Of a DNA stretch of 48,307 bases, positions 2,413 through 33,144 are shown piece after piece; position 1 is the first letter of the stretch; each line of letters opens with the position of its first letter. Position numbers and translations under genes: made by a program. The notes beneath the pieces are model-generated. The model was given only the letters and a program-made list of their open reading frames with translations, did no database searches and was not told the origin of the DNA. Origin of the DNA: Phycisphaeraceae bacterium (lineage in GTDB: Bacteria > Planctomycetota > Phycisphaerae > Phycisphaerales > Phycisphaeraceae); the NCBI GenBank assembly GCA_029260675.1, contig JAJDCV010000282.1, forward strand, positions 1-48,307, in the 5' to 3' direction.

Positions 2413-2588
2413 GACGGGTCACTCCCCCCCCGATTAGACCCAGGATTGCCCTGTGGATATTTACCTGCGTTGTCTTGGTTATCGTTCGTTTTCTGCCGAC
2501 GGGCCGACAGCCATAAGGTCGCGGCATAACCCCACAGCAACAGGATCGTGACGGCGTAGGCGGCGACGGCGTGGGTGGTCGCGCTCAT
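2409..2588 (-). CDS. ccmD: haem exporter protein D (CcmD), 59 aa, absent from the ORF track
   Basis: Hand translation gives MSATTHAVAAYAVTILLLWGYAATLWLSARRQKTNDNQDNAGKYPQGNPGSNRGGSDPS*. It has one TM helix followed by RRQ, as in CcmD. The ATG overlaps the ccmC stop (ATGA at 2585..2588) and the stop overlaps the hemA ATG (ATGA at 2409..2412). It sits in the canonical position after ccmC. Confidence 0.55.
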   Translation of the reverse strand: MSATTHAVAAYAVTILLLWGYAATLWLSARRQKTNDNQDNAGKYPQGNPGSNRGGSDPS

Positions 2589-3289: not shown

Positions 3290-3298
3290 GGGCCGCCT

Positions 3299-8543: not shown

Positions 8544-8699
8544 AAGCCCGTCCCTTTTACACAGCGCGTCGGGATACCTCACACAAAGCAAGTGCCAAAC
8601 CACGATCACTGTTGGCACCGATGGACGATTCATAATTATCATAAAATCAAGCATTTACAAGCTATATTGGGTTTGTGTCTCCGGCCGGGGCCCCGGCAA

Positions 8700-10122: not shown

Positions 10123-11754
10123 TCAGTTGTTGTAGTTCTCGTCGTCGTGGTCCTCGCCGTGGCACAACAGCGTACACGTCCCGCTTCGGTTCCCCTGGTC
10201 GATGAAGAACGGCCCGACGTTGCCCGCCTTCGGCGAGGGGAAGACCACGGAGTTGTCAAAGTTGATCAGGTGGCTGTTGTTGGCTGTGGTCCCAGCTACG
10301 GAGTCGATCCCGTGTGCGTCGTGACAGACCGAACACGGGGTGTCCTCACCGCGGATGTGTTTATCATGCTCCTTGAAGCTGTCGTCATTGAGGATGCTGT
10401 TGCGTTCGTGACACCGGTAACACAGGGCGTAGGCCGAAGCGCTCTCGGTGGTATGGTCTGTGGTGTCGTAGCGTGCGAGCAGCAGCGGACGGAAGCTTGA
10501 GCCGTGCGCTCCGCCTGCCCCGGATCCCGGAGAGTCCGAGCCGTGGCAGTCGGTGCAATAAACCCGGCTTGAGACGGTCCACGCGGGCTTCAGGCTCGGG
10601 ACATCGTTGTTGCGTCCGGTCGTGGTGACCGGGTGGAACGAAATGGCGGACGGGCTGAACTCCTCGCGGGTGTTGTTATTGACAATCTCACGGCTGATCC
10701 ATGGCTGAACGGCGGCCTGGTCGTCGTGGCATTTGAAGCAGACCTCGAACTCGAACTGAGCCGGCGACACCGGGGCCCCGGAGCTGGTGATGCCGTCGAC
10801 CGATCCGAAGTTCGGATGGATGTTCGGTGCCGCCGCCTGCCCGGTGTCGATCGTGTGCGGCTCGTGGCAGTCCGCACAGCCGACGTGATCGGGGATCGGG
10901 TCCAGGGGGTCTGAAATGCTATCGGTGTCGTGGACAAACAACTTGCCCATGTCGGCAGCGATGTTCGGTCCAGAGGTCGTGCCGTCGTGGCAGGCCAGGC
11001 AGGCGGCCCGGTCATTGACGCCATTGAGCAGGAACGGCCCGCTGGGCGCGGTGTGTGTCTTGTGACAGCCCTGGCAGTTCTCATGCCCGGTCACGGTGGT
11101 CGAGAGGATCTGGTGACAGCTGTTGCAAAGCTGTGAGTTGGTGTTATCCATCACCGTGAAGTCCCCGAACGTGTTGTCGTGCGCGTCGTGGCAGGTCGTA
11201 CACTGCAGTTCCTGGTTCGTGTCCAGCCGGACGTCGGCGGGAAGCCCCGCGGGGGAACGCAGTTTCGGGTCCTGCCCTGCCAGGACGGAGTCGTAGCGGA
11301 ACGAGACGGGGTGATCGTCTGAAAGATCGGTCTGGAGGTTGGCGTCCGAGATCGGCATGGTCGTCACGCCGCCGGACATCTGGATGACCTGGCCCTGCGA
11401 CACCACGCTGCCCAAGGCGATCGTGCCGTCGTGACAAGACAGGCACATCTTGCTTGTGCCGGTCGGCTGACCCGGGACGGCGTCCAGCGAGCTGCTGGAA
11501 TACACGGTGTAGGCACCGACCGGCTCGAAACGGTTCCACAAAGGATGCACCGGCGAAGCCGCGTGGGGCGTGTGGCAGAACACGCACACCCGCTGCTCGG
11601 TTGCGGCGACGATCGGCCCCGGACCCGTCACCGACAGGTTGTGCGGCGTGTCGATGATGCTGGCGCCCTGCCCGATCTGACCCTCGGCCGACACAGACAA
11701 AAATACCGCCGACACGATCACGACGGCCGACAGGATAACGGTGAGTGCTTTCAT
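10123..11754 (-). CDS. dodecahaem c-type cytochrome, Sec signal, no lipobox
   Basis: Eleven CXXCH motifs plus a terminal CTLLCH (CX3CH). The N-terminus MKALTVILSAVVIVSAVFLSVSA is signal-like. The DTPHNLS...CVFCHTPH pattern matches the Geobacter-type paired-CXXCH family. The ATG overlaps the upstream NHL gene stop (ATGA). Confidence 0.85.
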   Translation of the reverse strand: MKALTVILSAVVIVSAVFLSVSAEGQIGQGASIIDTPHNLSVTGPGPIVAATEQRVCVFCHTPHAASPVHPLWNRFEPVGAYTVYSSSSLDAVPGQPTGTSKMCLSCHDGTIALGSVVSQGQVIQMSGGVTTMPISDANLQTDLSDDHPVSFRYDSVLAGQDPKLRSPAGLPADVRLDTNQELQCTTCHDAHDNTFGDFTVMDNTNSQLCNSCHQILSTTVTGHENCQGCHKTHTAPSGPFLLNGVNDRAACLACHDGTTSGPNIAADMGKLFVHDTDSISDPLDPIPDHVGCADCHEPHTIDTGQAAAPNIHPNFGSVDGITSSGAPVSPAQFEFEVCFKCHDDQAAVQPWISREIVNNNTREEFSPSAISFHPVTTTGRNNDVPSLKPAWTVSSRVYCTDCHGSDSPGSGAGGAHGSSFRPLLLARYDTTDHTTESASAYALCYRCHERNSILNDDSFKEHDKHIRGEDTPCSVCHDAHGIDSVAGTTANNSHLINFDNSVVFPSPKAGNVGPFFIDQGNRSGTCTLLCHGEDHDDENYNN

Positions 11755-12842
11755 GGCTGGTCCTCCCCCAGGTAGTCGAACACCTGAACCCGACGGTTAT
11801 AGGTATCGGCCACCCAGATACGGTTCTGTGGATCGACCCATATCCCGGCGGGCAGCCAGAACTGCCCGCGTCCGCGTCCCTCTTCGCCGAAGGTCATCAG
11901 AAGCCGGCCCTGCGAGTCGAAGACCTGCACCGCCTCGAAGGAGGCGTCGATGACATACAGGTGGCCATCACGATCGACCCCCAGCCCCTTGGGACGGGCG
12001 AAGTAACCCGGCAGGTTCCCGCCGCGGCCGATCTGACGGATCGGTTTAAGGTCCACGTCGAATTGCTGCACACGGAAGTTCAACGTATCGCTGACGTACA
12101 GCCGGCCCGAAGCGTCGACCGCGACGTTCGTCGGGAAGTTGAACCCGCCCAACTCCACACCGCGCCCACCCAGGCGCTGGATCAGCTGCCCATCTAGGGT
12201 CATCACCACCACCAGGTGAGCCTTCACGTCCGCGACGAACAGCCGGCCACGTTCGGCGTCGATCGCGATGCCCGCCGGCCGACTTAGTAATTCCCCACCC
12301 ATCCTCTTGAGATAGACCCCGTGCTGGTCAAACACGACCAGATCACCCTCGACAGAGTCCGCGACGATCAATCTGCCCGCCGGGTCGTACGCCACGCCGG
12401 TCGGTTGCGAGAACCGGCCCACGTCATCCTTGTTATTGTCATCGTCCTCGTCGGCGGGCGGGGCCCATTGCTGATACACCCGTGTAGACAGGTCAAAGAC
12501 GTGGACGACCTGGGCGTTGGAATCCGCAACAAAAAGCCTGTCCGCGCCGTCCGAGCAAACAGCGAAGGGGCTGAGCATTTTCTCCTCAGGCTCACGCCCG
12601 AACAGCGTCGCGCCGACGTTATCCAGAAACGACTTGGCGGGTTTGAGGTCCTGACCGCTGCTTATCGCGCCGACGTAACGTATGCGCGCCTTTTCGGGCG
12701 GCGCTGGCCAGATGGGGTCGTCCGGTTGTGCCTGGAAGATCATCCCCGCCGGGGTCTGACACCCTAGCAGCGCGGCCACCGCGCCCAAGGCGCAAGCACG
12801 CCGTAACCATCCGCCGACCGATGCGAGATGTATCCCTGTCAT
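11751..12842 (-). CDS. NHL-repeat six-bladed beta-propeller lipoprotein
   Basis: Internal ATG at 12842 (MTGIHLASVGGWLRRACALGAVAALLGCQTP, lipobox LLGC) with GGAAAGG upstream. The longer ORF to 13100 would overlap the barrel gene. It has repeated F..P.G.A.D..GRLyVAD...RV..F units. Confidence 0.8.
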   Translation of the reverse strand: MTGIHLASVGGWLRRACALGAVAALLGCQTPAGMIFQAQPDDPIWPAPPEKARIRYVGAISSGQDLKPAKSFLDNVGATLFGREPEEKMLSPFAVCSDGADRLFVADSNAQVVHVFDLSTRVYQQWAPPADEDDDNNKDDVGRFSQPTGVAYDPAGRLIVADSVEGDLVVFDQHGVYLKRMGGELLSRPAGIAIDAERGRLFVADVKAHLVVVMTLDGQLIQRLGGRGVELGGFNFPTNVAVDASGRLYVSDTLNFRVQQFDVDLKPIRQIGRGGNLPGYFARPKGLGVDRDGHLYVIDASFEAVQVFDSQGRLLMTFGEEGRGRGQFWLPAGIWVDPQNRIWVADTYNRRVQVFDYLGEDQP

Positions 12843-12864
12843 GGCTTGCCTTTCCGGGTGGATG

Positions 12865-14913
12865 CTAGAAGTTCCTCCGTACGCCGGCAAATAAGCTCTG
12901 CGACGTCGTGTCGCTTGAGTTGGAGCTGAACACCTCGTTGCGGATCTGCAGGAACGCGCTGGTCTGTCGATAACGCCAGTCCAGGTCAAACCGCTGCTCA
13001 AAAGACGTGCTGTCTTCGCCGATGTCTTCGGAAAGGTCGAACCACAGCAGCTCGATGCGGCCGTTGAGTTTCCTGCTGAACTCATGAGTGAACGTGCCAC
13101 TGGCGGTGAACTGAGTGGCCGTGTTGTCTTCGTCGATAAACTCGGTCTCGGTGTGCTGAACCCGGATGTCCAGCGAGTCCGTCGATGAGATACGGTCGTG
13201 CAGGATCACCTCGAAGCGGGTCTGCTCGAACGGGGAGATATCGCTGTCGTGGTCGATGTGTTCGGCCTCGAAGATCAGGACGCCGAGCCGGTATTCCACG
13301 CCCACCGCCAACTCCTCGACGTTGTTAGGCACCACCACGATGAGCCGATCGCTGCGGATAGATTCGTCGATGCTCAGGTACCGCATAAACACCCCCAGGC
13401 CGGACAACGGGCCCTCTTGTAAGTCGTACCGAAGGCCCAGGCCGACGGTGTTTGAGGTGACGTTGTGTGCCGGCTCGGGATCGACCGTGTAATCGATCTC
13501 GACGTTCTCGCCGGCGGTGATCCGACCGGTCAGGACGCGCCGCAACTCGATGCGGTTGGCCAGCACGGTGACCCGGTAGTCGATGCCCTCGCTGTAAACA
13601 GCCGGGCCGACCGGGTTGGCGATGTTGTGTACGACGATGCTTGCCGCGTCGATATTGCTGCGTGCGAGGATCACGGGGCTGGGTCCCACAAAAGCGTGCG
13701 GCTCGCGGACAACCTGAAACGGTTGGCCACGTTCGCCGTTGTCTTGCTGATCGTAGCGCAGGCGCAGGTCGCCGGAGAGCCGGCCGCGGGGCACCAGCTT
13801 CGTGTATTCCAGCGCCAGGTCGCCGAACTTCCCATCGGTCTTGAACCCGTCCGAGAAATCCTCGGCATGTCCGCCCACCTGTGCCGTCGTGACGAGGCTG
13901 TCGTACAGCCGATGACGGACAAGCGCATCGCCGTTGTAAGCACGCTGGGTCAGCCCCGCGCGTTGCTGATCCAGCGCGGTGAAGTGGTACCGGGACTCCA
14001 GGGTCGGGGAGTGCGTGAGCCTCACGATCTCATCCCATCGGAACCTCTCTTCGGCGAAGTCGCCCTGCTGATCGAAGAACTCGAAACGCGATCGGATGTT
14101 GCTCTGGTGATCGTTGCCGAAATCCACCGTATGGGTCAGGTCGGTGTCGTGCCGGGTGTAATGGATATCCGCCCTGACCGGCGCAGTCAGGTCGATTTTG
14201 TTAAGCCGGTAGTTGAAATCCAGGTCCTGATATTCCCCGAGGTTGATCTGGCTGGAGATATCTACAAGGTCTTCGATCTGGTCGAAGCTGTTATTCCCGC
14301 TTGTGGACGGATCATTCTGGCTGGTTTTTCGCTGTGTGTAGCTGAAGCTGTGCCGGGCCTGGGGGAGCGTGACCAGCCAGTTGAAACCGGAGGCGGTGTC
14401 CGTGCTCTCGATCGTCGGGCCGAACTGCCGGTCCAGCAGTGTCTGGAACTGCCGGGTGAAGACGGTCAGGGGGGTGTTGCTTCGCCGCAGGATCGTCGCC
14501 CGCGCGTCGTATTCCTGGAGCGTTTCACCGACCTGGCGGTCCCCGCTGGGCGTGTCGCTGTCGAAGTCGTTTTGCTCAAGAATCATCGACCCGAACAGCG
14601 ATAGATGCACCAGGTTAGGGTGCCGGATAAACCCGTCCGTCGAGACCTCGAACAACTCGCGGAACTCCTGCTCGGTCTCGGTGGTGGTGGGTTGCCCGGT
14701 GGTGTCCGAGGTGTCTTCCTGCCAGCGGTACTCCAGCCCCAGCGAAGCATGGACGTTGTCGAACTCCAGCAGCGGCAACTCCCGCCGGGGGTTGATAACG
14801 ATCGGATCCTCCTGGCCATAGACCGGGCCGCAGACCCCAAGCAGCATCGACATCCCGGTGGTCAGTAACGCCGGGCGTGCGGGGTGTCGCACATTCAGTT
14901 TATGCGGTGTCAT
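12865..14913 (-). CDS. large outer-membrane beta-barrel protein (porin-like component)
   Basis: 682 aa with a signal-like N-terminus (...MLLGVCGPVYGQED). There are no long hydrophobic helices. Amphipathic short strands rich in Y/F/R/D/T/N/G alternate throughout. The C-terminus ends ...LFAGVRRNF, with the terminal Phe typical of OMPs. The ATG overlaps the upstream cytochrome stop (ATGA). Confidence 0.65.
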   Translation of the reverse strand: MTPHKLNVRHPARPALLTTGMSMLLGVCGPVYGQEDPIVINPRRELPLLEFDNVHASLGLEYRWQEDTSDTTGQPTTTETEQEFRELFEVSTDGFIRHPNLVHLSLFGSMILEQNDFDSDTPSGDRQVGETLQEYDARATILRRSNTPLTVFTRQFQTLLDRQFGPTIESTDTASGFNWLVTLPQARHSFSYTQRKTSQNDPSTSGNNSFDQIEDLVDISSQINLGEYQDLDFNYRLNKIDLTAPVRADIHYTRHDTDLTHTVDFGNDHQSNIRSRFEFFDQQGDFAEERFRWDEIVRLTHSPTLESRYHFTALDQQRAGLTQRAYNGDALVRHRLYDSLVTTAQVGGHAEDFSDGFKTDGKFGDLALEYTKLVPRGRLSGDLRLRYDQQDNGERGQPFQVVREPHAFVGPSPVILARSNIDAASIVVHNIANPVGPAVYSEGIDYRVTVLANRIELRRVLTGRITAGENVEIDYTVDPEPAHNVTSNTVGLGLRYDLQEGPLSGLGVFMRYLSIDESIRSDRLIVVVPNNVEELAVGVEYRLGVLIFEAEHIDHDSDISPFEQTRFEVILHDRISSTDSLDIRVQHTETEFIDEDNTATQFTASGTFTHEFSRKLNGRIELLWFDLSEDIGEDSTSFEQRFDLDWRYRQTSAFLQIRNEVFSSNSSDTTSQSLFAGVRRNF

Positions 14914-15575
14914 CCCGGCACCGCCTCACCCTGGTCGGGCGTCTGAGGTGATACATCACCGGAATTAATTTCGTTTAGCGCCTCCGGCTTAAGAAAATAA
15001 GTCCGGTCCCCACCGTGGCCGGAGTGGCAATCCAGGCATGATCGTTTCGGGTCCGTGTGCGCCTGGGGGGTCGGCCCCAGTGTGTCGGGCATCGCGTGAC
15101 AGGTGACGCACATGACCCGGGGCGGATCCCGGAGCATGAATACCGTCGTCGACTGGTGCGGGTCGTGGCAGGCCATGCAGTCGCCAACCGCCACGGGCCC
15201 GTGCATCAGCTCGAACTGCTCGGGTTTATTGCCGTGGCATTGGACGCAGACCGAGGCATCGGGCATCAGCGCAGCCGGTTCATGTGAGGTGTGGCAGGCC
15301 TGGCAATTTCCCTCGGAATAAGGCTCGTGGAAGTTGTACTTAATCGCCAGCCGTCTGCGAGCCTGCGCCGCGGGTGAGTTGGATAGTGCTTCTGGCGGGG
15401 CGTTGGGGTCCGGGACGCCGTCGAAGAAGAATGACAGCGTCTCGTAGTGCTCTTCCGGGTTGCAACCGGTCAATGCCAACAGCGGGGGCACGCCCAGGAC
15501 CAGAACAGGCAACAGGTACAGCACCCCGACGAAGCGCTTCCGCCGGACGCAACCTGACCTGACGCGGGCTTTCAT
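14910..15575 (-). CDS. pentahaem c-type cytochrome lipoprotein
   Basis: Five CXXCH motifs (CQACH, CVQCH, CMACH, CVTCH, CLDCH) and a lipobox LLALTGC. The ATG overlaps the NHL gene stop (ATGA). Confidence 0.85.
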   Translation of the reverse strand: MKARVRSGCVRRKRFVGVLYLLPVLVLGVPPLLALTGCNPEEHYETLSFFFDGVPDPNAPPEALSNSPAAQARRRLAIKYNFHEPYSEGNCQACHTSHEPAALMPDASVCVQCHGNKPEQFELMHGPVAVGDCMACHDPHQSTTVFMLRDPPRVMCVTCHAMPDTLGPTPQAHTDPKRSCLDCHSGHGGDRTYFLKPEALNEINSGDVSPQTPDQGEAVPG

Positions 15576-16861
15576 TTCTCAGACCCGGTAGCGCTGTTTT
15601 CCACCGGTGTTTCGACTGGTGGCCGCTGCGGGTCCGTCTTGGGATCAGCCGGCTCGGTGGCGCCTGGTGGCAGCGCCCCGGACCCTGTGTCCGCGCCCCG
15701 GACGTCGGAAACCCCCAGGTTCACTTCCGCCTGGTCCGCGCGGATGTCCTCGGGCGTAGCGCCTGGCTTGAGTTGACCCAGCGCGTAGACCGCGACTTTC
15801 GCCGGCCCGAATTGGTTGGTCACGATCAGCAGCCTCTCGGCCTGGAACGCGGGGTGGATATCCTTCTCAAACAGGTCCAGGTCGCCGTCATGAACCGTCA
15901 CGCCCACGGGCAGGAACATGGCCCCGGGGTGGTCGCCCACGTTACCGAACCAGGTCAGCAGCTTGCCCTGGTGGTTGAAGACCTGGACGTTCTGGAAAGC
16001 GGCATCCACGATGTAGATCCGCCCGTCAACATCGGTCGCCAGGTGCTTGGGCCGGACAAACTCTCCGATCGCGGTCGTGAGTTTCCCGAACCCCATAAGC
16101 AGCTCGCCGTCGGGTGAAAAGATCTGGATCCTGGCCTTAAGCGCATCCCCGACGATGACGCGCCCCTGGCGGTCAACATCAATCCCCAGCGGACGCACGA
16201 ACTGACCGTCTTCCGCGCCGCCGCCCTCCTGGCCGATCCGTCCGATTTCCTGCCCGTTGGATCGGTCCAGGATCAGCACTTGCTTGCTGATATAGTCGGT
16301 GACGTAGATCCGGTCCTGTGTCACGGCCAGAGCACCGGGCTTGAATAGCCCCGGCTCAAAACGTGTCAGGTAGCGCTCGTTCTGGTCATACACGACGATC
16401 CGGTTGGCCCCCAGGTCCGCGACGTAGATCAGCCCGTCGGGCGCAATCGCGACGTCGGTCGGCCTGATCAGGCGGGTGATCCCCCCGCTGCCGATCACAC
16501 GGGTCTGCTGGCTGCGGAGGTCCAGCACGACCACGCTGGGGTTACGGATATCACAGACGTAGATCCGTCCATTGGCCGCCTCCACGCCGTAGGGCTTGTT
16601 GATCGGCAGGACCTGCTGCCCGGCCTCGCCGTAGATAAGCGCATCGAGCTTGCCGCCATCGGGCTCGACGTCCTTACTGAATTGATAGGAGTGAAGGAAT
16701 TGGATCCGGGGCTGATCGGGATAGGGAGGCCAAAAGGAATAGCGCTTGTTGGGCGCTTGGGCGGTGGGCGTGCTCCCGCAGCCGGTCAGGGCCATCAGCG
16801 CGATCAGCCCCGCCAGGGAGGCCTTAGAGAAAGTGCGGGTGATCAAGCGTGTATCCGTCAT
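15572..16861 (-). CDS. NHL-repeat beta-propeller lipoprotein
   Basis: 429 aa, lipobox LMALTGC, six NHL-like units (e.g. PYGVEAANGRIYVCDIRNPSVVVLD, PTDVAIAPDGLIYVADLGANRIVVYD). The tail is Pro-rich. Confidence 0.8.
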   Translation of the reverse strand: MTDTRLITRTFSKASLAGLIALMALTGCGSTPTAQAPNKRYSFWPPYPDQPRIQFLHSYQFSKDVEPDGGKLDALIYGEAGQQVLPINKPYGVEAANGRIYVCDIRNPSVVVLDLRSQQTRVIGSGGITRLIRPTDVAIAPDGLIYVADLGANRIVVYDQNERYLTRFEPGLFKPGALAVTQDRIYVTDYISKQVLILDRSNGQEIGRIGQEGGGAEDGQFVRPLGIDVDRQGRVIVGDALKARIQIFSPDGELLMGFGKLTTAIGEFVRPKHLATDVDGRIYIVDAAFQNVQVFNHQGKLLTWFGNVGDHPGAMFLPVGVTVHDGDLDLFEKDIHPAFQAERLLIVTNQFGPAKVAVYALGQLKPGATPEDIRADQAEVNLGVSDVRGADTGSGALPPGATEPADPKTDPQRPPVETPVENSATGSEK

Positions 16862-17023
16862 AACCAGTTGCTCCCGCCACTTGCCCAGCCCTGAAGCTCA
16901 ATCCACTGCAACGGGTTATAATACCTGTATCCGGAAATCGGTGCCGAGGTCGATAAAAGGCGAGAAGACACGAACGGCGTGGCACCTGTTTTTTTAATTG
17001 AAGCCTTAACAGGAGCCGCTGGT

Positions 17024-17047
17024 CGGGCTGGTCGAGAGACCAGCCCG
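17024..17047 (-). terminator. perfect 10-bp GC-rich stem-loop just downstream of the tetrahaem gene (terminator or attenuator)
   Basis: The arms cgggctggtc and gaccagcccg flank a gaga loop, 19 nt after the stop at 17066. No clear U-tract follows on the minus strand, so its function is uncertain. Confidence 0.35.
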
Positions 17048-17065
17048 CCAGTGGCCTTTTATTGG

Positions 17066-17686
17066 CTATTTTATGTGGCAGGCCAGGCACAGCTGGCTGC
17101 CGTTGTTGGTGACGCGGAGCAACTCTGGCAGGTTCGCCTTATTGTGAACCGAGTGGCAAGACGCGCAACTGACGACGCTCTCGGCCTGACCTGCAACGGT
17201 CATGGACCGGACCCGCACGCCGTTGGCCTTGGGGTCGGGAGCCAAGCCGGTGTCGGCGAAGTCGTACACGGCCACGGCACCGACCGGGTGGTCGTCGCTG
17301 AGGTCGCCCGTGCCGCCACCCATCTGCTTGCTGGCACCGATGAACGTGGTACCGTTGGTCGTGCCGCCGAAGCTATCTAAGGCGATCGACCCGTCGTGGC
17401 AACTCATGCATGCCTGACTGTCACGGTCCAGGCCGGCGAAACCGTCGTTGGATGTCTGGCCTTCATAAAGGGTGTAATTGGCATACGAGGGAACCTCGTG
17501 GTTCCACAATAGCCCAAGCGTGGCGCCATTGGGCGCGTTGTGAGGCGCGTGGCAGGGCTGACAGATCGTCGAGCCAGACCAGCTCTCGGCACTGAAGTCG
17601 TGGGCGGAGCCTGAAAGGGCCGCCGAGGCCACCCCCGCGAAGACCAAGACACAGGCCATCGATAGGATGTGTTGACTGAGTTTCAT
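17066..17686 (-). CDS. small secreted tetrahaem c-type cytochrome
   Basis: ATG at 17686 (MKLSQHILSMACVLVFAGVASA) with GGAG 8 nt upstream. The ORF-track start at 17728 is a TTG. Four CXXCH motifs (CQPCH, CMSCH, CASCH, CLACH). It ends CLACHIK. Confidence 0.8.
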   Translation of the reverse strand: MKLSQHILSMACVLVFAGVASAALSGSAHDFSAESWSGSTICQPCHAPHNAPNGATLGLLWNHEVPSYANYTLYEGQTSNDGFAGLDRDSQACMSCHDGSIALDSFGGTTNGTTFIGASKQMGGGTGDLSDDHPVGAVAVYDFADTGLAPDPKANGVRVRSMTVAGQAESVVSCASCHSVHNKANLPELLRVTNNGSQLCLACHIK

Positions 17687-17768: not shown

Positions 17769-17784
17769 TGCAAATGGCGTACCT
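17769..17784 (-). promoter_or_regulatory. sigma-54 type -24/-12 promoter
   Basis: Minus strand reads AGGTACGCCATTTGCA against the consensus TGGCACG-N4-TTGCW. The GG-N10-GC spacing is correct. It lies about 85 nt upstream of the tetrahaem ATG. Confidence 0.55.
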
Positions 17785-18066: not shown

Positions 18067-19134
18067 TCACGGGCCGTCAGCTGTTTCAGCCGGGCCCAAA
18101 CCCTCTGCCGCCGTGCTCTTCTCAAAGGCGTTGCGGTAGGCATTCGATGCCTGCTCATACTCGCCCGCCTGCTGGTGGACCCGGCCCAGGAAGTAGAAGG
18201 CGTCGGCGGGGTCGGGGTTGATTTTCAGGGCCTCGGTCAGCGCGGTGCGAGCCTCGTCGAAACGTTCCAGCGCGACCAGCGCTCGTCCGCGCAGGGTTTG
18301 GATGCGCCAAGGGGGGACCAGGCCGGGCTCGAGCGCATCAAGAACCACCAGGGCCTCGGCGGGCTCGCCGATCATCAGATGGACCTGGGCCAGTGTCAGG
18401 CGGAGTTCAAGGTCGTCGGGGTTGGTGTCCAGCCCGCGTTTTAATTCTTCATGCGCGAGTTTGATCTGACCTTTTTCCAGGAGTCTCTGCGCCAGGTGCA
18501 GGTGGCGTGAGGCGACGTGGTTCGGGGTGCTCCCGACCGTGCCGTTGGTATCCAAGCGTTTCTTGAGTGCTTCGCTGTCGATCGTGCCCCGGGTAAATTC
18601 CAGGTAGGCCCGCATGTCTTTGGTATAGGACTCCCGCAGCCCCGGGAGGCGTGCGATGCGTTCGCCTTGGTCGTTGACGATGACGGTGCTGGGCCAGACG
18701 CGGACCGACATCAGGCCGGACGCTTCGTAATCCGGATCCACCACGACCGGCCAGGGCCACTTTTCCGACCCGGTTAGCTGGGCGGCACCGACCCCCGCGC
18801 CGTGCCCACTGACCACGGCGATGGGCTGCACATCCGCCCCGGTCGCCTCGTCGGTTAAAATCGCACGCAGCTGAGTCATCGCCTCGTCGCTGCGCGCCTG
18901 GTCGGCCATCACGAACAGAACGATGCTGATCTTCCCGGGCGCGGGCACCGAGACGTCTTTGTCGGCGGTGTCGGTCGCCCGCCAGCGGATGGGCTGAGGC
19001 GTTTCCGCCACGTCTTCCTGTCCGTATGCCGTGATGCCGGCGAACAGCGCGGCGAGACACGCGATCACGGGGTACAGCGTTCTCGGGTTGTGATTCGGAT
19101 TGGGTGTGTTGTGTGTCATGTTTGTTGCCCTCAC
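18067..19134 (-). CDS. membrane-anchored CXXC-less redoxin (TlpA-like fold) fused to TPR repeats
   Basis: The GTG at 19134 overlaps the upstream cytochrome stop (GTGA). An alternative ATG at 19119 has GAGGG upstream. The redoxin-like segment ISIVLFVMADQARSDEAM lacks the CXXC. The C-terminal half carries TPR-like repeats (...ALKINPDPADAFYFLGRVHQQAGEYEQA...). It is a paralogue of 28944..30008. Confidence 0.7.
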   Translation of the reverse strand: MRATNMTHNTPNPNHNPRTLYPVIACLAALFAGITAYGQEDVAETPQPIRWRATDTADKDVSVPAPGKISIVLFVMADQARSDEAMTQLRAILTDEATGADVQPIAVVSGHGAGVGAAQLTGSEKWPWPVVVDPDYEASGLMSVRVWPSTVIVNDQGERIARLPGLRESYTKDMRAYLEFTRGTIDSEALKKRLDTNGTVGSTPNHVASRHLHLAQRLLEKGQIKLAHEELKRGLDTNPDDLELRLTLAQVHLMIGEPAEALVVLDALEPGLVPPWRIQTLRGRALVALERFDEARTALTEALKINPDPADAFYFLGRVHQQAGEYEQASNAYRNAFEKSTAAEGLGPAETADGP

Positions 19135-20549
19135 TGGGCTTTAGGTTTGTAATCGACGGGCCTGACTCGATCGTAGGCCTTGGGCTTGTGGCATCCCGGC
19201 GAGCAGGAGCCGCCGGTTTCGGTTTGTTTGTAATTGATCGGCAGTTCCCACTTGCCGTAGGGCACAGACTCCCGCAGGTGCAGCGCAAGTGTGCTGGCGT
19301 GGACGCTGTGGCAGGCGCGGCAGCTTCGGCCACGTGGGTCCTTGTTGACGTGCAGGTAGTGCATATTCGTGCGGCCGTTTCGGAAACCGGTGAGCCCCTT
19401 GGCGTCGGGCGTGAGCACCAGCTGCTCGTCGTGACATTCGAAACACAAGCGGTATGACTCGATATCAAACGGCTGGTAGAACGTCGCGGGGTACTCGTCG
19501 ATCAAGAGTTTTGCGAACTCCGAACCGTGGACGTTGTGACAACCCCCGCAGCTCCCCTCGGCGACCGGGCCGTGCTTGATGAGGTCGGGGTCCTTGACTT
19601 CCGAAACCGACGCAACCGCCCTGCCGTCGTCCGTCGTGATGGGCTGATCGTGGCAGGTCAGGCAGAGATCGACGGGCTTGTCTTTCATGAGTTTTGCCAG
19701 GTCGCCGCCGTGGGGCGTGTGGCAGTTGACGCAGCCGCGTTCCTGTGTGACGGCGGAGTGCTGGTGCTTCGCCTCGCTGACGGCCTGCTTGATGTCCTCG
19801 TGGCAGGTCGTGCAAAGCTCGCCCGGGGCCTGCTTGACCAGCATGGGGAAGTCCGTTGCGTGGGCGTTGTGACAACCCAGGCAATCCTCTTGAGCCGGCT
19901 CGTGGACAAACCCGACCTCCGTGAGTTGCTGCCGCATCTCCATGTGGCAGCCGACGCACAACTCCATGCCCGTCTCGATCAACAGCTTGGGGTTCTTGGA
20001 TGCGTGCGGCTCGTGACACATCCCGCATGCCCCGGCGGCGACCGGGCCATGAACAAATTGCTTGTCGCCTACCACGTCCTGATGGCAAGATGCACACAGC
20101 TCGCTCATCGAAGGCTTCTTCAGTGAGTTGCGATCGAACCCGCCGTGGGGGTCGTGGCATCCTGTGCAGTCGCGCGTGACCAGCGGGTCGTGAAGCGTCT
20201 GGGCGTCTTCGACCTCGATCACGTGGCAGAAGGTGCAGGCATCCGCCTTCTCGCGCGCGGGAACGTAGCTGTGGGTTTTGGCGTCGGTGAGTGTGTGGCA
20301 GGCGTCGCAGGCGTTGACGTTTACCGGGCCGTGCAGCACGTCGTGGCGCTTGACGTTCGCGTGACAGTCCGCGGTGACGCAGCTGACCTGCTCGATCTCG
20401 GTGGTGGGCTTGGAGGGGGCTTGGGCAGCCAACTCCCCGGCGTTGGCTGGATCAGATGCGGGGGCCTGGGCGCGGAGCGTGGTCGCGATGCCCGCGAGTC
20501 CGATCGCCACGATCAACAAGAAGGCCGAGGTTAGGTGGTAGTACTTCAT
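19131..20549 (-). CDS. 15-haem-motif c-type cytochrome (paralogue 1)
   Basis: 13 CXXCH motifs plus an N-terminal CVTADCH (CX4CH) and a C-terminal GGSCSPGCH (CX3CH). It has a signal peptide. The ATG overlaps the upstream gene stop (ATGA). Confidence 0.85.
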   Translation of the reverse strand: MKYYHLTSAFLLIVAIGLAGIATTLRAQAPASDPANAGELAAQAPSKPTTEIEQVSCVTADCHANVKRHDVLHGPVNVNACDACHTLTDAKTHSYVPAREKADACTFCHVIEVEDAQTLHDPLVTRDCTGCHDPHGGFDRNSLKKPSMSELCASCHQDVVGDKQFVHGPVAAGACGMCHEPHASKNPKLLIETGMELCVGCHMEMRQQLTEVGFVHEPAQEDCLGCHNAHATDFPMLVKQAPGELCTTCHEDIKQAVSEAKHQHSAVTQERGCVNCHTPHGGDLAKLMKDKPVDLCLTCHDQPITTDDGRAVASVSEVKDPDLIKHGPVAEGSCGGCHNVHGSEFAKLLIDEYPATFYQPFDIESYRLCFECHDEQLVLTPDAKGLTGFRNGRTNMHYLHVNKDPRGRSCRACHSVHASTLALHLRESVPYGKWELPINYKQTETGGSCSPGCHKPKAYDRVRPVDYKPKAQ

Positions 20550-22174
20550 GAAGGGTCCCCATCTGTGGAGGTATCGCCGGGCCGGATCGTGGTCGGCGAC
20601 GGGTCAGCCGGTGGCGTTGCCGGGGGTGTCGCCGGGGGTGTCGGCTTGGGTGTCGGCCCACTGGAACGCCGGTAGGTTTTTTGTTCGTGGCATCCCGGTG
20701 AGCACGACCCGCCGTTCTCGGTCTTTGTGAAATTGATGGGCATGGCCCACTGCGAACCCTCGAAAGGCACGTCGGCGGCGATGTGGTCCGGGCGGTCGCT
20801 GCCGTGGATGTCGTGGCAGGCCTTGCAGGTCCGGCCTTTCTTGTCGCGATGGACGTGCAGGTAGTGCAGGTTCTGATCGCCCTCGCGGAAGCCGGTGAGC
20901 TGATCGGTGGTCTCGGTCAGCACCAGGTCGGCGCTGTGGCAGCTGAAGCACAGCGCGTAGTTAGTGAGGTCGAACGAGGCGTAGAAGGTGTCGGGGAAGG
21001 ATTGTCGCAGGAGGCGGGCGTTCTCGCCGCCGTGGACGCTGTGGCAGGCCGCGCAGTCCCCGGCTCGCACGGGCCCGTGCAGGAAACGGCGGTTCAGGGT
21101 CGACTGCATGTCGGCGATGGTCCGGCCGTCGGTCGCCTCGATGGGTTCGTTGTGGCATCGCATGCACAGGTGGTCGGCCCGGTCACGAAGCAGGTTCGGG
21201 CCGGCCGCGGCGTGTGGGTCGTGGCAGTTGGCACAGCCGTCTTCGATAAACAGCGCATCGTGCGATACCGGCTGCGATTTGATGCGCTCGGCCATCTGCT
21301 CGTGACAAGCGAAGCAGCTATCCGCAACCGGGGCGGGTAACTGATACGGGAACGCGCTGGTATGTGCGTCGTGACAACCGGTGCAGTTCTCTTTGGCGGG
21401 CTCGTGGATAAACGGCGAGTTCGCGAGCTTGACCTGGATACCCGTGTGGCAACTGAAACAGTGATCGGGCTGCTCACCCTGGCGCAGCAGGTTGCTTGCG
21501 TTGGCCTCGTGTGGTTGGTGGCAGACGGTGCACTGACCAGAAGCAAACGGGCCGTGGGCGTACTTCTGTAACGGTGTTTCGTGGCACGTCGCGCAGGTTA
21601 GTTCGATGCTCGGCTGTGTCAGCAGAAACTTGGCGTCGGACCGGTGCGGGTCGTGGCAGGCGACACAGCCTGAGTCCTCAATCGCCGCGTGCTGTTGTGT
21701 GCGTGCGCCGAGGACGGGATGGCAGAAGGTGCAGGTCTGGTTGCCGGCTCGTTTCATGGGGTAGACATGGGCACCGGCATCGGGCTCGTGGCAGGACTGG
21801 CAGTTGGCGACCGCAACCGGGCCGTGGACGTGCTTGGCGTTGACCAGGCCGGTGTGGCAGCCGGGCGTGACGCACGAAGCGTCTTCAGGCAGAGCCGTAG
21901 TCGGGCGGGGCAAAGACTCGACGGGGTCGGTCATCTGCAAGGCGTCTATACCGGCGGGGTCAGGGTGTTGGGTTTTAGTTCCGATGGGCGATTCGTAGTG
22001 CCCGGTTGACGCCGCGGCGGGCGCATCGGTCTTGCGTGCCGACCCGTCTGGGTCGCTCGGTTCTTCGTGCCCACAGCCCGAGAGCAATAGAAACAGGCAC
22101 ACACAAAGCAAACCCGGCGCGCATCGCCTCCACCTGCTGGGACCGGCTCGTGATTTAGCCGGGCGTTGGATCAC
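20546..22174 (-). CDS. 15-haem-motif c-type cytochrome lipoprotein (paralogue 2)
   Basis: The GTG start overlaps the upstream stop (GTGA). Lipobox LLLSGC. It has 13 CXXCH motifs plus CVTPGCH and GGSCSPGCH, and a Pro/Thr-rich tail PTPKPTPPATPPATPPADPSP. Confidence 0.85.
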   Translation of the reverse strand: MIQRPAKSRAGPSRWRRCAPGLLCVCLFLLLSGCGHEEPSDPDGSARKTDAPAAASTGHYESPIGTKTQHPDPAGIDALQMTDPVESLPRPTTALPEDASCVTPGCHTGLVNAKHVHGPVAVANCQSCHEPDAGAHVYPMKRAGNQTCTFCHPVLGARTQQHAAIEDSGCVACHDPHRSDAKFLLTQPSIELTCATCHETPLQKYAHGPFASGQCTVCHQPHEANASNLLRQGEQPDHCFSCHTGIQVKLANSPFIHEPAKENCTGCHDAHTSAFPYQLPAPVADSCFACHEQMAERIKSQPVSHDALFIEDGCANCHDPHAAAGPNLLRDRADHLCMRCHNEPIEATDGRTIADMQSTLNRRFLHGPVRAGDCAACHSVHGGENARLLRQSFPDTFYASFDLTNYALCFSCHSADLVLTETTDQLTGFREGDQNLHYLHVHRDKKGRTCKACHDIHGSDRPDHIAADVPFEGSQWAMPINFTKTENGGSCSPGCHEQKTYRRSSGPTPKPTPPATPPATPPADPSPTTIRPGDTSTDGDPS

Positions 22175-23718: not shown

Positions 23719-23730
23719 AATGGATGACTC

Positions 23731-27808: not shown

Positions 27809-27834
27809 CGGTCACTCCTGGACTCGTGAGCCTC

Positions 27835-28494: not shown

Positions 28495-28503
28495 CACGGT
28501 TCC

Positions 28504-33124: not shown

Positions 33125-33144
33125 ATGCTTTACCTGCCCGGGGT

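What the first reader, a model, noticed from the sequence alone, without database searches (positions are those of the whole stretch)
10123..16861. Translationally coupled five-gene operon: NHL propeller, 5-haem lipoprotein, 682-aa barrel, NHL propeller, 12-haem cytochrome
The order on the minus strand is NHL lipoprotein (15572..16861), pentahaem lipoprotein (14910..15575), large beta-barrel ending in Phe (12865..14913), second NHL lipoprotein (11751..12842) and secreted dodecahaem cytochrome (10123..11754). Three of the four junctions are 4-nt ATGA start/stop overlaps. The fourth is a 22-nt gap with a GGAAAGG ribosome-binding site. This implies fixed stoichiometry. Porin-cytochrome conduits normally have a barrel plus one periplasmic and one surface cytochrome. 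Here the barrel is MtrB-sized (roughly 700 aa) rather than OmbB-sized. In addition, two lipidated six-bladed NHL propellers are built into the operon. NHL proteins are found near Geobacter cytochromes, but as far as I know no function in electron transfer has been established. They could be scaffolds, mineral or substrate binding heads, or assembly factors.
Basis: partly seen in the sequence, partly recalled or inferred. Interest (0 to 1): 0.85.

Follow-up and report, generated by a model that had tools for sequence, protein, structure and literature searches.

The report
Outer-membrane electron conduit with propeller partners
This is a real, widely conserved gene module of Planctomycetota and Verrucomicrobiota that most likely builds a haem-filled pore to carry respiratory electrons across the outer membrane. 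One of its cytochromes carries a built-in copy of the Geobacter OmcE "nanowire" unit, which suggests how such wires could be plugged into the cell.

Summary
Five minus-strand genes sit at the stated coordinates, with three ATGA overlaps and one 22-nt gap. They encode an NHL lipoprotein, a 5-haem lipoprotein, a 682-aa protein, a second NHL lipoprotein and a cytochrome with 11 CXXCH plus 1 CX3CH.

AlphaFold2 models the 682-aa protein as a roughly 28-strand barrel (pLDDT 86). MtrB gives the highest TM-score among the listed Foldseek matches. The barrel belongs to an unnamed family of about 2,730 clusters at 50% identity.

The gene order is kept in 16 other loci from Planctomycetota, Verrucomicrobiota and unassigned metagenome contigs, even where barrel identity falls to 22%. 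Natural fusions of the 5-haem lipoprotein to the barrel exist.

- A conserved sixth gene (17066-17686) is a full-length homologue of OmcE, the Geobacter nanowire cytochrome.
- The first ~200 residues of the "12-haem" protein are also an OmcE-type unit.
- The Geobacter omcE locus holds homologues of NHL2, of the 5-haem protein and of the upstream cytochromes.

NHL propellers inside cytochrome clusters are already described (Uet, D. ferrophilus DFE clusters, the Skennerton core operon, Gmet_0556). The Uet cluster of Ca. Tenderia has nearly the same parts list.

Verdict: a new variant of the porin-cytochrome/Uet/omcE-locus kind. The propellers are probably non-redox adaptors. Topology and direction of electron flow are unresolved.

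The parts
17066..17686 (-). OmcE-type tetrahaem cytochrome (206 aa from ATG 17686; 4 CXXCH). It is the conserved sixth gene of the module and a candidate filament subunit or surface terminal.
   Evidence: Full-length match to PDB 7TFS (OmcE, E 1.2e-17) and 9YUQ (E 9.7e-20). 33% identity to G. sulfurreducens OmcE. The 4 CXXCH and 4 extra His are invariant in 28 sequences. An orthologue lies upstream of the module in 13 of the 15 related loci whose upstream side is held.
17014..17056 (-). Very stable stem-loop between the OmcE-type gene and NHL1. It is probably a terminator, attenuator or mRNA stabiliser that uncouples expression of the small cytochrome from the five-gene unit.
   Evidence: Free energy -41.4 kcal/mol, z-score -6.7, 0 of 200 shuffles as stable. 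Hairpins at the same place in L004, L005, L007, L008 and L017, and after G. sulfurreducens omcE.
16918..16947 (-). Weak sigma-70-like promoter match 57 nt upstream of the NHL1 start codon.
   Evidence: TCGGCA-18-TATTAT, 9 of 12 matches. The count in the region is not above the shuffles.
15572..16861 (-). NHL1: lipoprotein with a six-bladed NHL beta-propeller and the N-terminal motif Y-x-F-W-P-P-x-P-x-x-P-R-I-x-F.
   Evidence: Pfam NHL and DUF5128 hits. Lipobox LTGC. Orthologue in the same position in all 15 loci whose upstream side is held. No conserved His, Cys or Met.
14910..15575 (-). Pentahaem lipoprotein cytochrome with a MtrA/DmsE-like paired-CXXCH fold and the motif LSFFFDGVPDP just after the lipidated Cys.
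   Evidence: Five CXXCH and a lipobox. Pfam Paired_CXXCH_1. Weak match to the C-terminal part of MtrA, 6r2q_A, E 2.6e-6. A 4-nt overlap with the barrel gene is kept in 9 of 14 loci. Fused to the barrel in P0158, P0186, P0208 and L007.
12865..14913 (-). Outer-membrane beta-barrel of about 28 strands, from a new unnamed family. C-terminal signature R/K-R-x-F.
   Evidence: AF2 pLDDT 85.9 with 28 long strands. Foldseek finds giant outer-membrane barrels, with the highest listed TM-score to MtrB 6r2q_B (0.41/0.43). No Pfam or NCBIfam family. 2,730 clusters at 50% identity.
13468..13737 (-). Domain of about 90 residues (roughly residues 393-482) inserted between barrel strands 17 and 18. It contains many of the family's invariant residues.
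   Evidence: Secondary structure. Invariant columns N420, G443, D445, E456, R458, R459, G463, I465, V471, P479 and others. Present in all 15 aligned barrels.
11751..12842 (-). NHL2: lipoprotein with a six-bladed NHL beta-propeller and the motif W-P-x-P-P-x-x-x-R-I-x-Y. It is the closer of the two propellers to the NHL gene that precedes omcE in Geobacter.
   Evidence: Pfam NHL, 4 repeats, E 1.8e-34. 33% identity, E 9e-57, to the G. sulfurreducens NHL lipoprotein next to omcE. 4-nt overlap with the 12-haem gene in the window and in 7 of 14 relatives.
10123..11754 (-). Cytochrome with 12 haem motifs (11 CXXCH plus 1 CX3CH) and a Sec signal but no lipobox. It consists of an N-terminal OmcE-type tetrahaem unit followed by eight more haems.
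   Evidence: Motif count. The count is identical in every relative where the gene is complete and unbroken, 12 of 14. 14 invariant non-motif His.
11110..11682 (-). OmcE-type tetrahaem unit inside the 12-haem protein (about residues 25-215).
   Evidence: PDB 7TFS E 1.5e-29 and 9YUQ E 4e-22 over residues 15-215. 37% identity to G. sulfurreducens OmcE. All eight axial ligands conserved.
18067..25926 (-). Upstream supply chain. It holds a TPR/thioredoxin-like maturation protein (18067-19134), two cytochromes with 15 haem motifs each (19131-20549; 20546-22174, a lipoprotein), a NapC/NirT-type membrane cytochrome with 12 motifs (22171-23718, ImcH-like) and a multihaem cytochrome fused to an FdnI-like cytochrome b (23731-25926, CbcL-like).
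   Evidence: Pfam and NCBIfam hits. Haem-motif and hydrophobic-segment counts. The two 15-motif cytochromes are 39% identical to the G. sulfurreducens cytochrome two genes upstream of the NHL gene in the omcE locus. The same genes sit next to the module in L001.

Best explanation
The five genes, together with the OmcE-type gene just upstream, most likely encode an outer-membrane extracellular-electron-transfer module of a Phycisphaerae-like planctomycete.

Shown or strongly predicted:
- A barrel of about 28 strands from a large unnamed family.
- Two multihaem cytochromes.
- Two paralogous six-bladed NHL propellers that lack any conserved haem or metal ligand.
- Strict conservation of the order NHL1, lipoprotein cytochrome, barrel, NHL2, 12-haem across two phyla.
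- Gene fusions that tie the pentahaem lipoprotein to the barrel's N-terminus.
- An OmcE-type tetrahaem unit, once as a free protein and once as the head of the 12-haem protein.

Inferred mechanism:
- Quinol-oxidising inner-membrane cytochromes (ImcH-like and CbcL-like) and the two 15-motif cytochromes encoded upstream (one with a Sec signal, one a lipoprotein; their periplasmic location is inferred) pass electrons to the outer membrane.
- There a haem chain runs through the barrel, as MtrA does in MtrB.
- The pentahaem lipoprotein sits at or in the periplasmic mouth of the barrel.
- The 12-haem protein completes the trans-membrane wire.
- Its OmcE-type head, alone or extended by the free OmcE-type subunit, is the external contact.
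- Each NHL propeller is a non-redox docking or assembly adaptor for the cytochrome encoded immediately after it. NHL2 is specific for the OmcE-type unit, the same gene pairing as in the Geobacter omcE locus.

The direction of electron flow (reduction of external acceptors or uptake from donors) cannot be read from the sequence.
For: - Barrel: AF2 pLDDT 85.9 with 28 strands. Highest listed TM-score to MtrB, then LptD, TonB-dependent receptors and ushers. C-terminal R/K-R-x-F in all 15 family members examined.
- Conservation: the same order in L004-L017, L021 and L025, with barrel identity down to 22%. The 12-haem protein always has 11 CXXCH plus 1 CX3-4CH where its gene is complete.
- Association of the 5-haem protein with the barrel: a 4-nt overlap in 9 of 14 loci, and fusions P0158, P0186, P0208 and L007 in which the barrel part has no signal peptide of its own.
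- OmcE link. 7TFS is OmcE according to PMC12954529.
- Geobacter omcE locus: it holds homologues of NHL2 (E 9e-57), the 5-haem protein (E 4e-17) and the two upstream 15-motif cytochromes (E 2e-71), followed by a 752-aa protein with no Pfam hit that ends KKFF.
- NHL proteins: a shared N-terminal WPP...PRI motif and no conserved His, Cys or Met.
- Supply chain.
- Precedents in the literature for the same logic: MtrCAB, ExtEFG (barrel, pentahaem lipoprotein, dodecahaem; PMC6148476) and Uet (28-strand barrel, two NHL proteins, 11xCXXCH cytochrome, extracellular tetrahaem).
Against: - No experiment exists for any member of this module.
- No multimer model could be made, and AF2 of the 12-haem protein failed (pLDDT 47). 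Whether either cytochrome fits in the barrel is untested.
- The barrel has no detectable sequence relation to MtrB/PioB or to the Geobacter 752-aa protein.
- Surface versus periplasmic placement of the two cytochromes is argued only indirectly, and Geobacter-style predictions would place them the other way round.
- Some verrucomicrobial NHL2 proteins lack the lipobox Cys, so membrane anchoring of NHL2 is not essential.
Confidence: 0.7

Rival explanations
1. The module is a nanowire assembly and anchoring machine rather than a simple conduit. The barrel, with its inserted plug-like domain, would be the export and anchoring pore for a polymer of the OmcE-type subunit. The NHL propellers would control polymerisation or filament shape. 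The 12-haem protein would be the filament base. This overlaps with the best explanation, and both could be true.
For: - An OmcE-type gene lies next to the module in most loci, and an OmcE-type head is present on the 12-haem protein in every locus.
- The strong hairpin after the small gene fits high, separate expression of a major subunit.
- The NHL-omcE pairing is conserved in Geobacter and in two further MAGs.
- The OmcS companion cluster is reported to need channel-like OscEFG for secretion and OscD for nanowire morphology (Shen 2025, as cited in PMC13194489; that OscD is propeller-like is my recollection of the abstract).
- Ushers, whose barrels carry an inserted plug, are among the Foldseek hits.
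Against: - The TM-score to MtrB (0.41) exceeds that to FimD (0.29).
- No Pfam usher or secretin match.
- L013 shows no free OmcE-type gene within the 7 kb held upstream, yet it keeps the module.
- The barrel is not related to the Geobacter 752-aa protein next to omcE.
- Polymerisation of the PVC protein is untested.
Confidence: 0.3
2. The module works in the opposite direction, as an electron-uptake conduit (oxidation of Fe(II), reduced humics, cathodes or partner cells), as proposed for the architecturally similar Uet cluster.
For: The Uet cluster, with the same parts list, is conserved in cathode-oxidising Tenderiales and in Gallionella. Relatives come from boreal humic lakes, where oxidative electron transfer is proposed.
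Against: The flanking ImcH-like and CbcL-like quinol oxidoreductases and the OmcE homology are Geobacter-type features of reductive electron transfer (the role of those Geobacter proteins is from my own knowledge). Multihaem conduits are reversible in principle, so sequence cannot decide.
Confidence: 0.3
3. The module is not an electron conduit. The barrel would be a substrate porin and the NHL proteins would be enzymes (lactonase, arylesterase or strictosidine-synthase-like propellers) working with periplasmic cytochromes on a soluble substrate.
For: Weak Pfam hits of the NHL proteins to SGL, Arylesterase and SSL_N.
Against: - These hits are far weaker than the NHL repeat hits and are typical cross-matches between propellers.
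- No conserved catalytic-type His or Cys.
- Fusion of the cytochrome to the barrel.
- Co-location with about 100 haem motifs, cytochrome maturation genes and hemA.
- A 28-strand barrel is far larger than known substrate porins.
Confidence: 0.04

Closest known systems
Uet (undecahaem electron transfer) cluster of Ca. Tenderia electrophaga and some Gallionella (bioRxiv 10.1101/2022.05.06.490989; PMC9900912)
   Same: The parts list is nearly the same: a predicted extracellular tetrahaem (UetA), a barrel predicted to have 28 strands (UetC), two NHL propeller proteins (UetH, UetI) directly before a cytochrome with 11 CXXCH predicted to be a long haem bar (UetJ), and adjacent cytochrome-maturation and TPR genes.
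   Different: Uet also has a prolyl isomerase, three trihaem c7-type cytochromes and a cupredoxin, and it has no pentahaem lipoprotein coupled to the barrel. It occurs in Gammaproteobacteria and Betaproteobacteria and is proposed for electron uptake. Sequence homology could not be tested here because no Uet sequences were available. The paper text does not mention OmcE at all (0 occurrences).
Geobacter sulfurreducens omcE locus (GSU0615-0619 by my own numbering; OmcE filament PDB 7TFS)
   Same: Homologues of the OmcE-type unit, NHL2, the 5-haem protein (partial) and the two upstream 15-motif cytochromes lie together. An NHL gene directly precedes the OmcE-type sequence in both. A strong hairpin follows the small cytochrome gene in both.
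   Different: In Geobacter, OmcE is only a free 232-aa protein, there is one NHL gene, and the adjacent 752-aa protein is unrelated in sequence to the window's barrel. No 12-haem fusion protein is present. The gene order differs.
Geobacter ExtEFG outer-membrane conduit (PMC6148476)
   Same: The cytochrome composition is identical: an outer-membrane integral protein, a pentahaem lipoprotein and a non-lipoprotein dodecahaem.
   Different: No NHL genes are described in the ext clusters. ExtE is predicted to have 21 transmembrane segments, against about 28 strands here. Homology could not be tested.
Shewanella MtrCAB (PDB 6R2Q)
   Same: A giant barrel that sheathes a haem wire. MtrB gives the highest TM-score among the listed structural matches of the 682-aa protein. 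The 5-haem protein weakly matches the C-terminal part of MtrA. The barrel gene directly follows a cytochrome gene.
   Different: No sequence membership in the MtrB/PioB, MtrA/DmsE or MtrC/OmcA families. The barrel has 28 rather than 26 strands and carries a conserved 90-residue insert. The module has two NHL propellers. The barrel-coupled cytochrome is lipidated.
NHL/beta-propeller-containing cytochrome clusters of Desulfobacterota (D. ferrophilus DFE_0448-0465; the core operon of Skennerton 2017; the osc cluster)
   Same: Six-bladed propeller lipoproteins are conserved next to large multihaem cytochromes and have been proposed to stabilise outer-membrane cytochrome complexes.
   Different: Those clusters centre on 16- and 26-haem cytochromes and a prolyl isomerase. 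No prolyl isomerase is in the module or among the window ORFs I scanned. The link to an OmcE-type unit and this barrel family are not part of those descriptions.

Membership tests
OmcE-type tetrahaem cytochrome (PDB 7TFS) | Full-length sequence homology to OmcE | tested here: met
   Small cytochrome 17066-17686: E 1.2e-17 to 7TFS over residues 25-220. N-terminal 200 residues of the 12-haem protein: E 1.5e-29. 33% and 37% identity to G. sulfurreducens OmcE.
OmcE-type tetrahaem cytochrome (PDB 7TFS) | Four CXXCH motifs plus four further conserved His as distal ligands | tested here: met
   All 8 Cys and 8 His columns are invariant in 28 sequences, comprising OmcE, the free small cytochromes and the 12-haem N-domains.
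OmcE-type tetrahaem cytochrome (PDB 7TFS) | Polymerises into an extracellular filament with an inter-subunit His-haem bond | not testable with these tools
   This needs microscopy or a multimer model with haems.
MtrCAB-type porin-cytochrome complex | Barrel belongs to the MtrB/PioB sequence family | tested here: not met
   The 682-aa protein matches no Pfam family at E<=0.01; its only NCBIfam hit is a sub-threshold match to a phage tail tube family over residues 412-489 (20 bits against a cut-off of 60). A profile search of PDB sequences finds nothing.
MtrCAB-type porin-cytochrome complex | Barrel of more than 20 strands, wide enough to hold a multihaem cytochrome | tested here: met
   The AF2 model has 28 strands at pLDDT 85.9. 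Highest listed TM-score to 6r2q_B. Whether the lumen is occupied was not tested.
MtrCAB-type porin-cytochrome complex | Periplasmic decahaem of the MtrA/DmsE family | tested here: not met
   TIGR03508 scores of 47.9 bits (5-haem) and 37.1 bits (12-haem), against a cut-off of 192.
Geobacter ExtEFG-type conduit | Outer-membrane integral protein, pentahaem lipoprotein and non-lipoprotein dodecahaem in one cluster | tested here: met
   Composition. Definition from PMC6148476.
Geobacter ExtEFG-type conduit | Sequence homology to ExtE, ExtF and ExtG | not testable with these tools
Uet cluster | Tetrahaem, 28-strand barrel, two NHL proteins and an 11xCXXCH cytochrome, co-located | tested here: met
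   compared with the description.
Uet cluster | Prolyl isomerase, trihaem c7 cytochromes and a cupredoxin in the cluster | tested here: not met
   None of these Pfam families was found in the module or in the window ORFs I scanned; ORFs 92-1315, 2585-3976, 6022-8654 and 39935-41158 were not scanned.
Uet cluster | Sequence homology to UetA, UetC, UetH, UetI and UetJ | not testable with these tools
   The sequences (ALP54622-ALP54629, ALP54908) could not be retrieved.
NHL-repeat six-bladed beta-propeller (PF01436) | Repeated NHL motifs forming six blades | tested here: met
   Pfam NHL at E 2e-16 (NHL1) and 1.8e-34 (NHL2). TRIM71 NHL domains are the top PDB matches. Six periodic P...D...V.D motifs appear in the 31-sequence alignment. 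The blade number was not confirmed by a model.
Chaperone-usher pore (FimD/PapC) | Usher sequence family with a plug domain in a 24-strand barrel | tested here: not met
   No Pfam Usher hit. TM-score to FimD of only 0.29. An inserted domain does exist, but its position and fold were not compared.

The most novel reading that the evidence does not exclude
The 12-haem protein is a built-in adaptor that joins a trans-barrel haem wire to an OmcE-type cytochrome nanowire. Its N-terminal OmcE-type unit would seed or cap a polymer of the free 206-aa subunit, while its other eight haems run into the 28-strand barrel. The NHL2-type propeller, which also precedes omcE in Geobacter, would be the dedicated factor that holds or releases the OmcE-type unit. 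That would give a first genetic picture of how cytochrome filaments are electrically and physically plugged into the outer membrane, and a function for the NHL proteins.
Probability: 0.25. Interest if true: 0.85.

Novelty: new variant of a known kind. Interest (0 to 1): 0.68.

Why it matters
- Extracellular electron transfer is characterised experimentally mainly in Shewanella and Geobacter. This module would extend a complete Geobacter-style chain (quinol oxidases, periplasmic cytochromes, outer-membrane conduit, OmcE-type unit) to Planctomycetota and Verrucomicrobiota, abundant phyla of sediments, soils and humic lakes.
- The barrel family is large (about 2,730 clusters at 50% identity) yet has no Pfam or NCBIfam model. 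Current annotation pipelines therefore miss it.
- The covalent OmcE-type head on a conduit cytochrome, the conserved pairing of an NHL gene with an OmcE-type sequence shared with Geobacter, and the natural cytochrome-barrel fusions give concrete, testable handles on two open questions. One is how cytochrome nanowires connect to outer-membrane conduits; PMC10553843 states that this step is not well understood. The other is what the NHL propellers found in so many cytochrome clusters do.

Tried and rejected
- AF2 of the 12-haem protein with a 52-sequence alignment gave pLDDT 47, which is unusable. No fold search was run on it.
- The Geobacter 752-aa protein next to omcE was tested against the window's barrel family by BLAST, by profile against sequence and by profile against profile. 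No relation was found. It also has no PDB, Pfam or NCBIfam match.
- The first genome scan with the 10-sequence alignment failed for lack of a conserved stretch. It was repeated with 7 sequences. That scan rests on one peptide pattern, so its PVC-only result does not show that the family is absent elsewhere.
- PADLOC models of defence systems gave no hits.
- A sigma-54 promoter search found one well-placed site, but the window-wide count equals the chance expectation. The sigma-70 scan was also no better than chance.
- The Shen 2025 paper on the osc cluster and the OmcE structure paper are not held. Statements about them rest on citing papers and on my memory.
- The idea that the 12-haem protein is a triplicated OmcE unit was rejected, because the spacing of haem motifs in residues 216-543 does not repeat the OmcE pattern.
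- The idea that the propellers carry a redox cofactor was rejected, because they have no conserved His, Cys or Met.

Full report
**1. The observation**

All five ORFs exist on the minus strand at the stated coordinates, each with an ATG start.
- NHL1: 15572-16861, 429 aa, lipobox LTGC.
- Pentahaem protein: 14910-15575, 221 aa, five CXXCH, lipobox LTGC.
- 682-aa protein: 12865-14913, ends RRNF.
- NHL2: 11751-12842, 363 aa, lipobox LLGC.
- 543-aa cytochrome: 10123-11754, 11 CXXCH plus CTLLCH, with a Sec-type signal and no lipobox.

Three junctions are ATGA overlaps. The fourth is the 22-nt spacer that contains GGAAAGG. Pfam confirms the NHL repeats and the paired-CXXCH cytochrome domains. The 682-aa protein matches no Pfam family; its only NCBIfam hit is a sub-threshold match to a phage tail tube family over residues 412-489, inside the insert described in section 2. 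The CX3CH site is invariant in 52 homologues, so twelve haems is reasonable.

**2. The 682-aa protein**

A word-indexed search found only 10 relatives. An exhaustive profile search found 2,730 clusters at 50% identity with E<=1e-3, and 1,342 with E<=1e-30. Most are 650-700 aa long. This is a large family that has no name.

AlphaFold2 with the 10-sequence alignment gives pLDDT 85.9 and pTM 0.65. The model has 17 long strands, then a roughly 90-residue domain of short strands (about residues 393-482), then 11 more long strands, so I count 28 barrel strands.

Foldseek against the PDB returns only giant outer-membrane barrels: TonB-dependent receptors, LptD, FimD and MtrB. MtrB (6r2q_B) has the highest TM-score among the 50 listed matches, at 0.41/0.43.

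The standard barrel-geometry formula gives a C-alpha diameter of about 51 Å for 28 strands, against about 48 Å for the 26 strands of MtrB. This is my own estimate, not a tool result.

The connections between strands are short on both faces. The inserted domain holds many of the invariant residues of the family and is present in all 15 barrels I aligned. All 15 end in R/K-R-x-F.

**3. Conservation**

A genome scan found 12 loci: five in Planctomycetota, including Phycisphaerae MAGs, and seven in Verrucomicrobiota MAGs. Context look-ups added L016, L017, L021 and L025.

- In all 16 loci the barrel gene is followed by an NHL gene and then a 535-603-aa cytochrome.
- In the 15 loci whose upstream side is present, the barrel is preceded by an NHL gene and a lipoprotein cytochrome.
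- Barrel identity falls to 22% while the order is unchanged.
- The last cytochrome keeps exactly 11 CXXCH plus 1 CX3-4CH wherever its gene is complete.
- The barrel-coupled lipoprotein cytochrome has 5 haems in Planctomycetota and in L009, and 11-21 haems in the other Verrucomicrobiota.
- The 4-nt overlap between the lipoprotein cytochrome and the barrel is kept in 9 of 14 loci. The overlap between NHL2 and the 12-haem gene is kept in 7 of 14.
- NHL1 and NHL2 are distinct orthologous lineages across both phyla.

The closest relatives of the window are a Planctomycetota MAG (74-85% protein identity) and a Phycisphaeraceae MAG.

**4. Gene fusions**

Three cluster representatives (P0158, P0186, P0208) and locus L007 encode a single polypeptide. 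It runs: lipoprotein signal, the motif LSFFFDGVPDP, five CXXCH, a Pro/Ala-rich linker of 80-120 residues, then the barrel. The barrel part has no signal peptide of its own.

This is strong evidence that the pentahaem lipoprotein and the barrel associate 1:1. It also ties the cytochrome to the barrel's N-terminus, which is periplasmic in known outer-membrane barrels (my own knowledge). LptE, a lipoprotein that sits inside the LptD barrel, is a precedent for this arrangement (my own knowledge).

**5.

The small gene just upstream (17066-17686, 206 aa, four CXXCH) matches PDB 7TFS over its full length (E 1.2e-17). It also matches 9YUQ, a 218-aa "putative multiheme cytochrome c" deposited as 16 chains (E 9.7e-20). 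7TFS is the OmcE nanowire of G. sulfurreducens (PMC12954529).

Residues 15-215 of the 12-haem protein match OmcE even better (E 1.5e-29). In an alignment of OmcE, the free small cytochromes and the N-domains of the 12-haem proteins (28 sequences), the four CXXCH motifs and four further His are all invariant. So the "dodecahaem" is an OmcE-type tetrahaem unit followed by eight more haems.

A free OmcE-type gene lies upstream of the module in 13 of the 15 related loci whose upstream side is held.

A very stable hairpin follows the small gene (-41.4 kcal/mol, z -6.7). Comparable hairpins follow its orthologues, and also Geobacter omcE, where a U-tract follows the hairpin. This fits separate, probably higher, expression of the small subunit.

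**6. The Geobacter omcE locus**

I recovered the G. sulfurreducens locus around omcE. It reads: ppcA-like gene, resB, ccsA, cytochrome (370 aa), cytochrome (330 aa, 8 haems), NHL lipoprotein (361 aa), omcE, and a 752-aa protein with no Pfam hit that ends KKFF.

| Geobacter protein | Window protein | Identity | E-value |
|---|---|---|---|
| NHL lipoprotein (361 aa) | NHL2 | 33% | 9e-57 |
| NHL lipoprotein (361 aa) | NHL1 | 30% | 2e-35 |
| 370-aa cytochrome | 15-motif cytochromes at 19131-22174 | 39% | 2e-71 |
| 330-aa cytochrome | pentahaem protein (partial match) | 32% | 4e-17 |

The 752-aa protein shows no relation to the window's barrel family, even profile against profile. The same locus type, with one or two NHL genes flanking omcE, occurs in two other MAGs.

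So an NHL2-type propeller gene directly precedes an OmcE-type sequence both in Geobacter and in the PVC module.

**7. The NHL proteins**

Both paralogues and the Geobacter protein share an N-terminal motif, (F/W)-W-P-P-x-P-x-x-P-R-I-x-(F/Y), after the lipobox. Six periodic P...D...V.D repeats follow, which fits six blades. No His, Cys or Met is conserved at 90% or more. A redox or haem-binding role is therefore unlikely, and a docking or assembly role is the simplest reading. Several verrucomicrobial NHL2 proteins lack the lipobox Cys.

**8. Genomic context**

Upstream on the same strand lie:
- a TPR/thioredoxin-like protein;
- two cytochromes with 15 haem motifs each;
- a NapC/NirT-type membrane cytochrome with 12 motifs, which is ImcH-like by architecture;
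- a multihaem cytochrome fused to an FdnI-like cytochrome b with about five hydrophobic segments, which is CbcL-like by architecture.

The names ImcH and CbcL come from my own knowledge of Geobacter.

Downstream lie ccmE and ccmF (annotated from the syntenic locus L001), an ABC-transporter ATPase and hemA. About 100 haem motifs are encoded between 9.2 and 31.4 kb. A sigma-54 activator, histidine kinases and a phosphonate-binding-like protein are nearby. The same regulator set flanks the module in L003, L016 and L017.

**9. Mechanism**

The best-supported reading is a porin-cytochrome conduit. A haem chain passes the 28-strand barrel. The pentahaem lipoprotein sits at or in its periplasmic mouth. 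The 12-haem protein completes the chain and presents an OmcE-type unit outside, possibly extended by the free subunit. Each propeller acts as an adaptor for the cytochrome encoded after it.

What is shown: the parts, their conservation, the fusions and the homologies. What is inferred: occupancy of the barrel, the topology, polymerisation, the role of the NHL proteins and the direction of electron flow.

The main rival, which is not exclusive, is a nanowire export and anchoring machine like the reported osc system (plus my memory of Shen 2025). A reversed, electron-uptake role as proposed for Uet is equally compatible with the sequence.

**10. Comparison with what is known**

NHL propellers in cytochrome clusters are already described:
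- D. ferrophilus, where they were proposed to stabilise the outer-membrane cytochrome complex (PMC5815863; PMC8322314);
- the core operon of ANME partner bacteria and Desulfuromonadales (PMC5539420);
- Ca. Dechloromonas occultata;
- Gmet_0556 of G. metallireducens, reported as important for iron reduction (as cited);
- the Uet cluster.

The Uet cluster has nearly the same parts list, including a barrel predicted to have 28 strands, two NHL genes before an 11xCXXCH cytochrome, and an extracellular tetrahaem. ExtEFG has the same cytochrome composition.

New here:
- the PVC-wide module, with a pentahaem lipoprotein translationally coupled or fused to the barrel;
- the size and anonymity of the barrel family, and its conserved insert;
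- the recognition that the tetrahaem and the head of the large cytochrome are OmcE-type units;
- the NHL-OmcE gene pairing shared with Geobacter.

Homology to the Uet and Ext proteins could not be tested. I therefore rate this a new variant of a known kind, with interest 0.68.

Noticed in passing
window 17014-17056 (-): A very stable stem-loop (-41.4 kcal/mol, z -6.7) lies right after the OmcE-type gene. Hairpins occupy the same position in L004, L005, L007, L008 and L017 and after G. sulfurreducens omcE, with different sequences. Two of them are followed by U-tracts.
   Followed up: partly
window 17769-17784 (-); 31790-35252 (-); 38530-39909 (+): A sigma-54-like -24/-12 element (AGGTAC-N5-TTGCA) lies about 83 nt upstream of the OmcE-type start codon. 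A sigma-54 activator, two histidine-kinase-type genes and a phosphonate-binding-like periplasmic protein are nearby, and the same regulator set flanks the module in L003, L016 and L017. The promoter match is not above chance across the window.
   Followed up: partly
window 22171-25926 (-): Two inner-membrane cytochromes. One is NapC/NirT-type with 12 haem motifs and one membrane anchor (ImcH-like). The other has 11 haem motifs fused to an FdnI-like cytochrome b (CbcL-like). They would link the quinol pool to the conduit.
   Followed up: partly
window 26178-31447 (-): A second cytochrome set: a 5-haem protein, a cytochrome b (petD-like) with four hydrophobic segments, a 288-aa ORF with no family, a second TPR/AhpC-TSA protein paralogous to 18067-19134, and a 15-motif cytochrome. 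It may be a separate quinol:cytochrome module with its own maturation factor.
   Followed up: no
window 18067-19134 and 28944-30008 (-): Two TPR plus thioredoxin-like (AhpC/TSA, CcmH-TPR) proteins sit inside the cytochrome operons. They may be specialised haem-attachment helpers for the non-standard CX3-4CH sites found in the 12-haem and 15-motif cytochromes. The Uet cluster also carries a TPR NrfG-like gene.
   Followed up: no
window 9207-10037 (+): A convergent hexahaem cytochrome (276 aa). Its C-terminal part weakly resembles the end of the OmcE-type unit (9YUQ, E 0.003). Homologues lie near the module in L007 and L008.
   Followed up: partly
L010 4958-7447; L014 1697-5020: In Verrucomicrobiota a large cytochrome with 8-9 haems and PKD domains (829-1107 aa), probably surface-exposed, is inserted between the OmcE-type gene and NHL1. 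In the same loci the barrel-coupled lipoprotein cytochrome is expanded to 11-21 haems.
   Followed up: partly
P0158, P0186, P0208; L007 9152-11977: Natural single-polypeptide fusions of the pentahaem lipoprotein to the barrel through a Pro/Ala-rich linker. The layout is reminiscent of the fused cytochrome-porin Cyc2.
   Followed up: yes
L018 10863-13121; L020; L023; L024: A conserved protein of about 750 aa directly after omcE in Geobacter-type loci. It has a signal peptide, ends KKxF and has no Pfam, NCBIfam or PDB match. It may be another unnamed outer-membrane barrel. Glycosyltransferase genes follow it.
   Followed up: partly
window 35868-38521 (+): Two adjacent radical-SAM proteins, one with a SPASM domain, lie between the sensor genes and the sigma-54 activator. 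Their substrate is unknown.
   Followed up: no
L026 (GCA_050261455.1): A 57%-identical homologue of the 12-haem protein sits on a contig labelled Bacillota, next to a cytochrome fused to cytochrome b561, an NHL protein and a 990-aa cytochrome. Either the bin is contaminated or the family occurs outside the PVC phyla.
   Followed up: no
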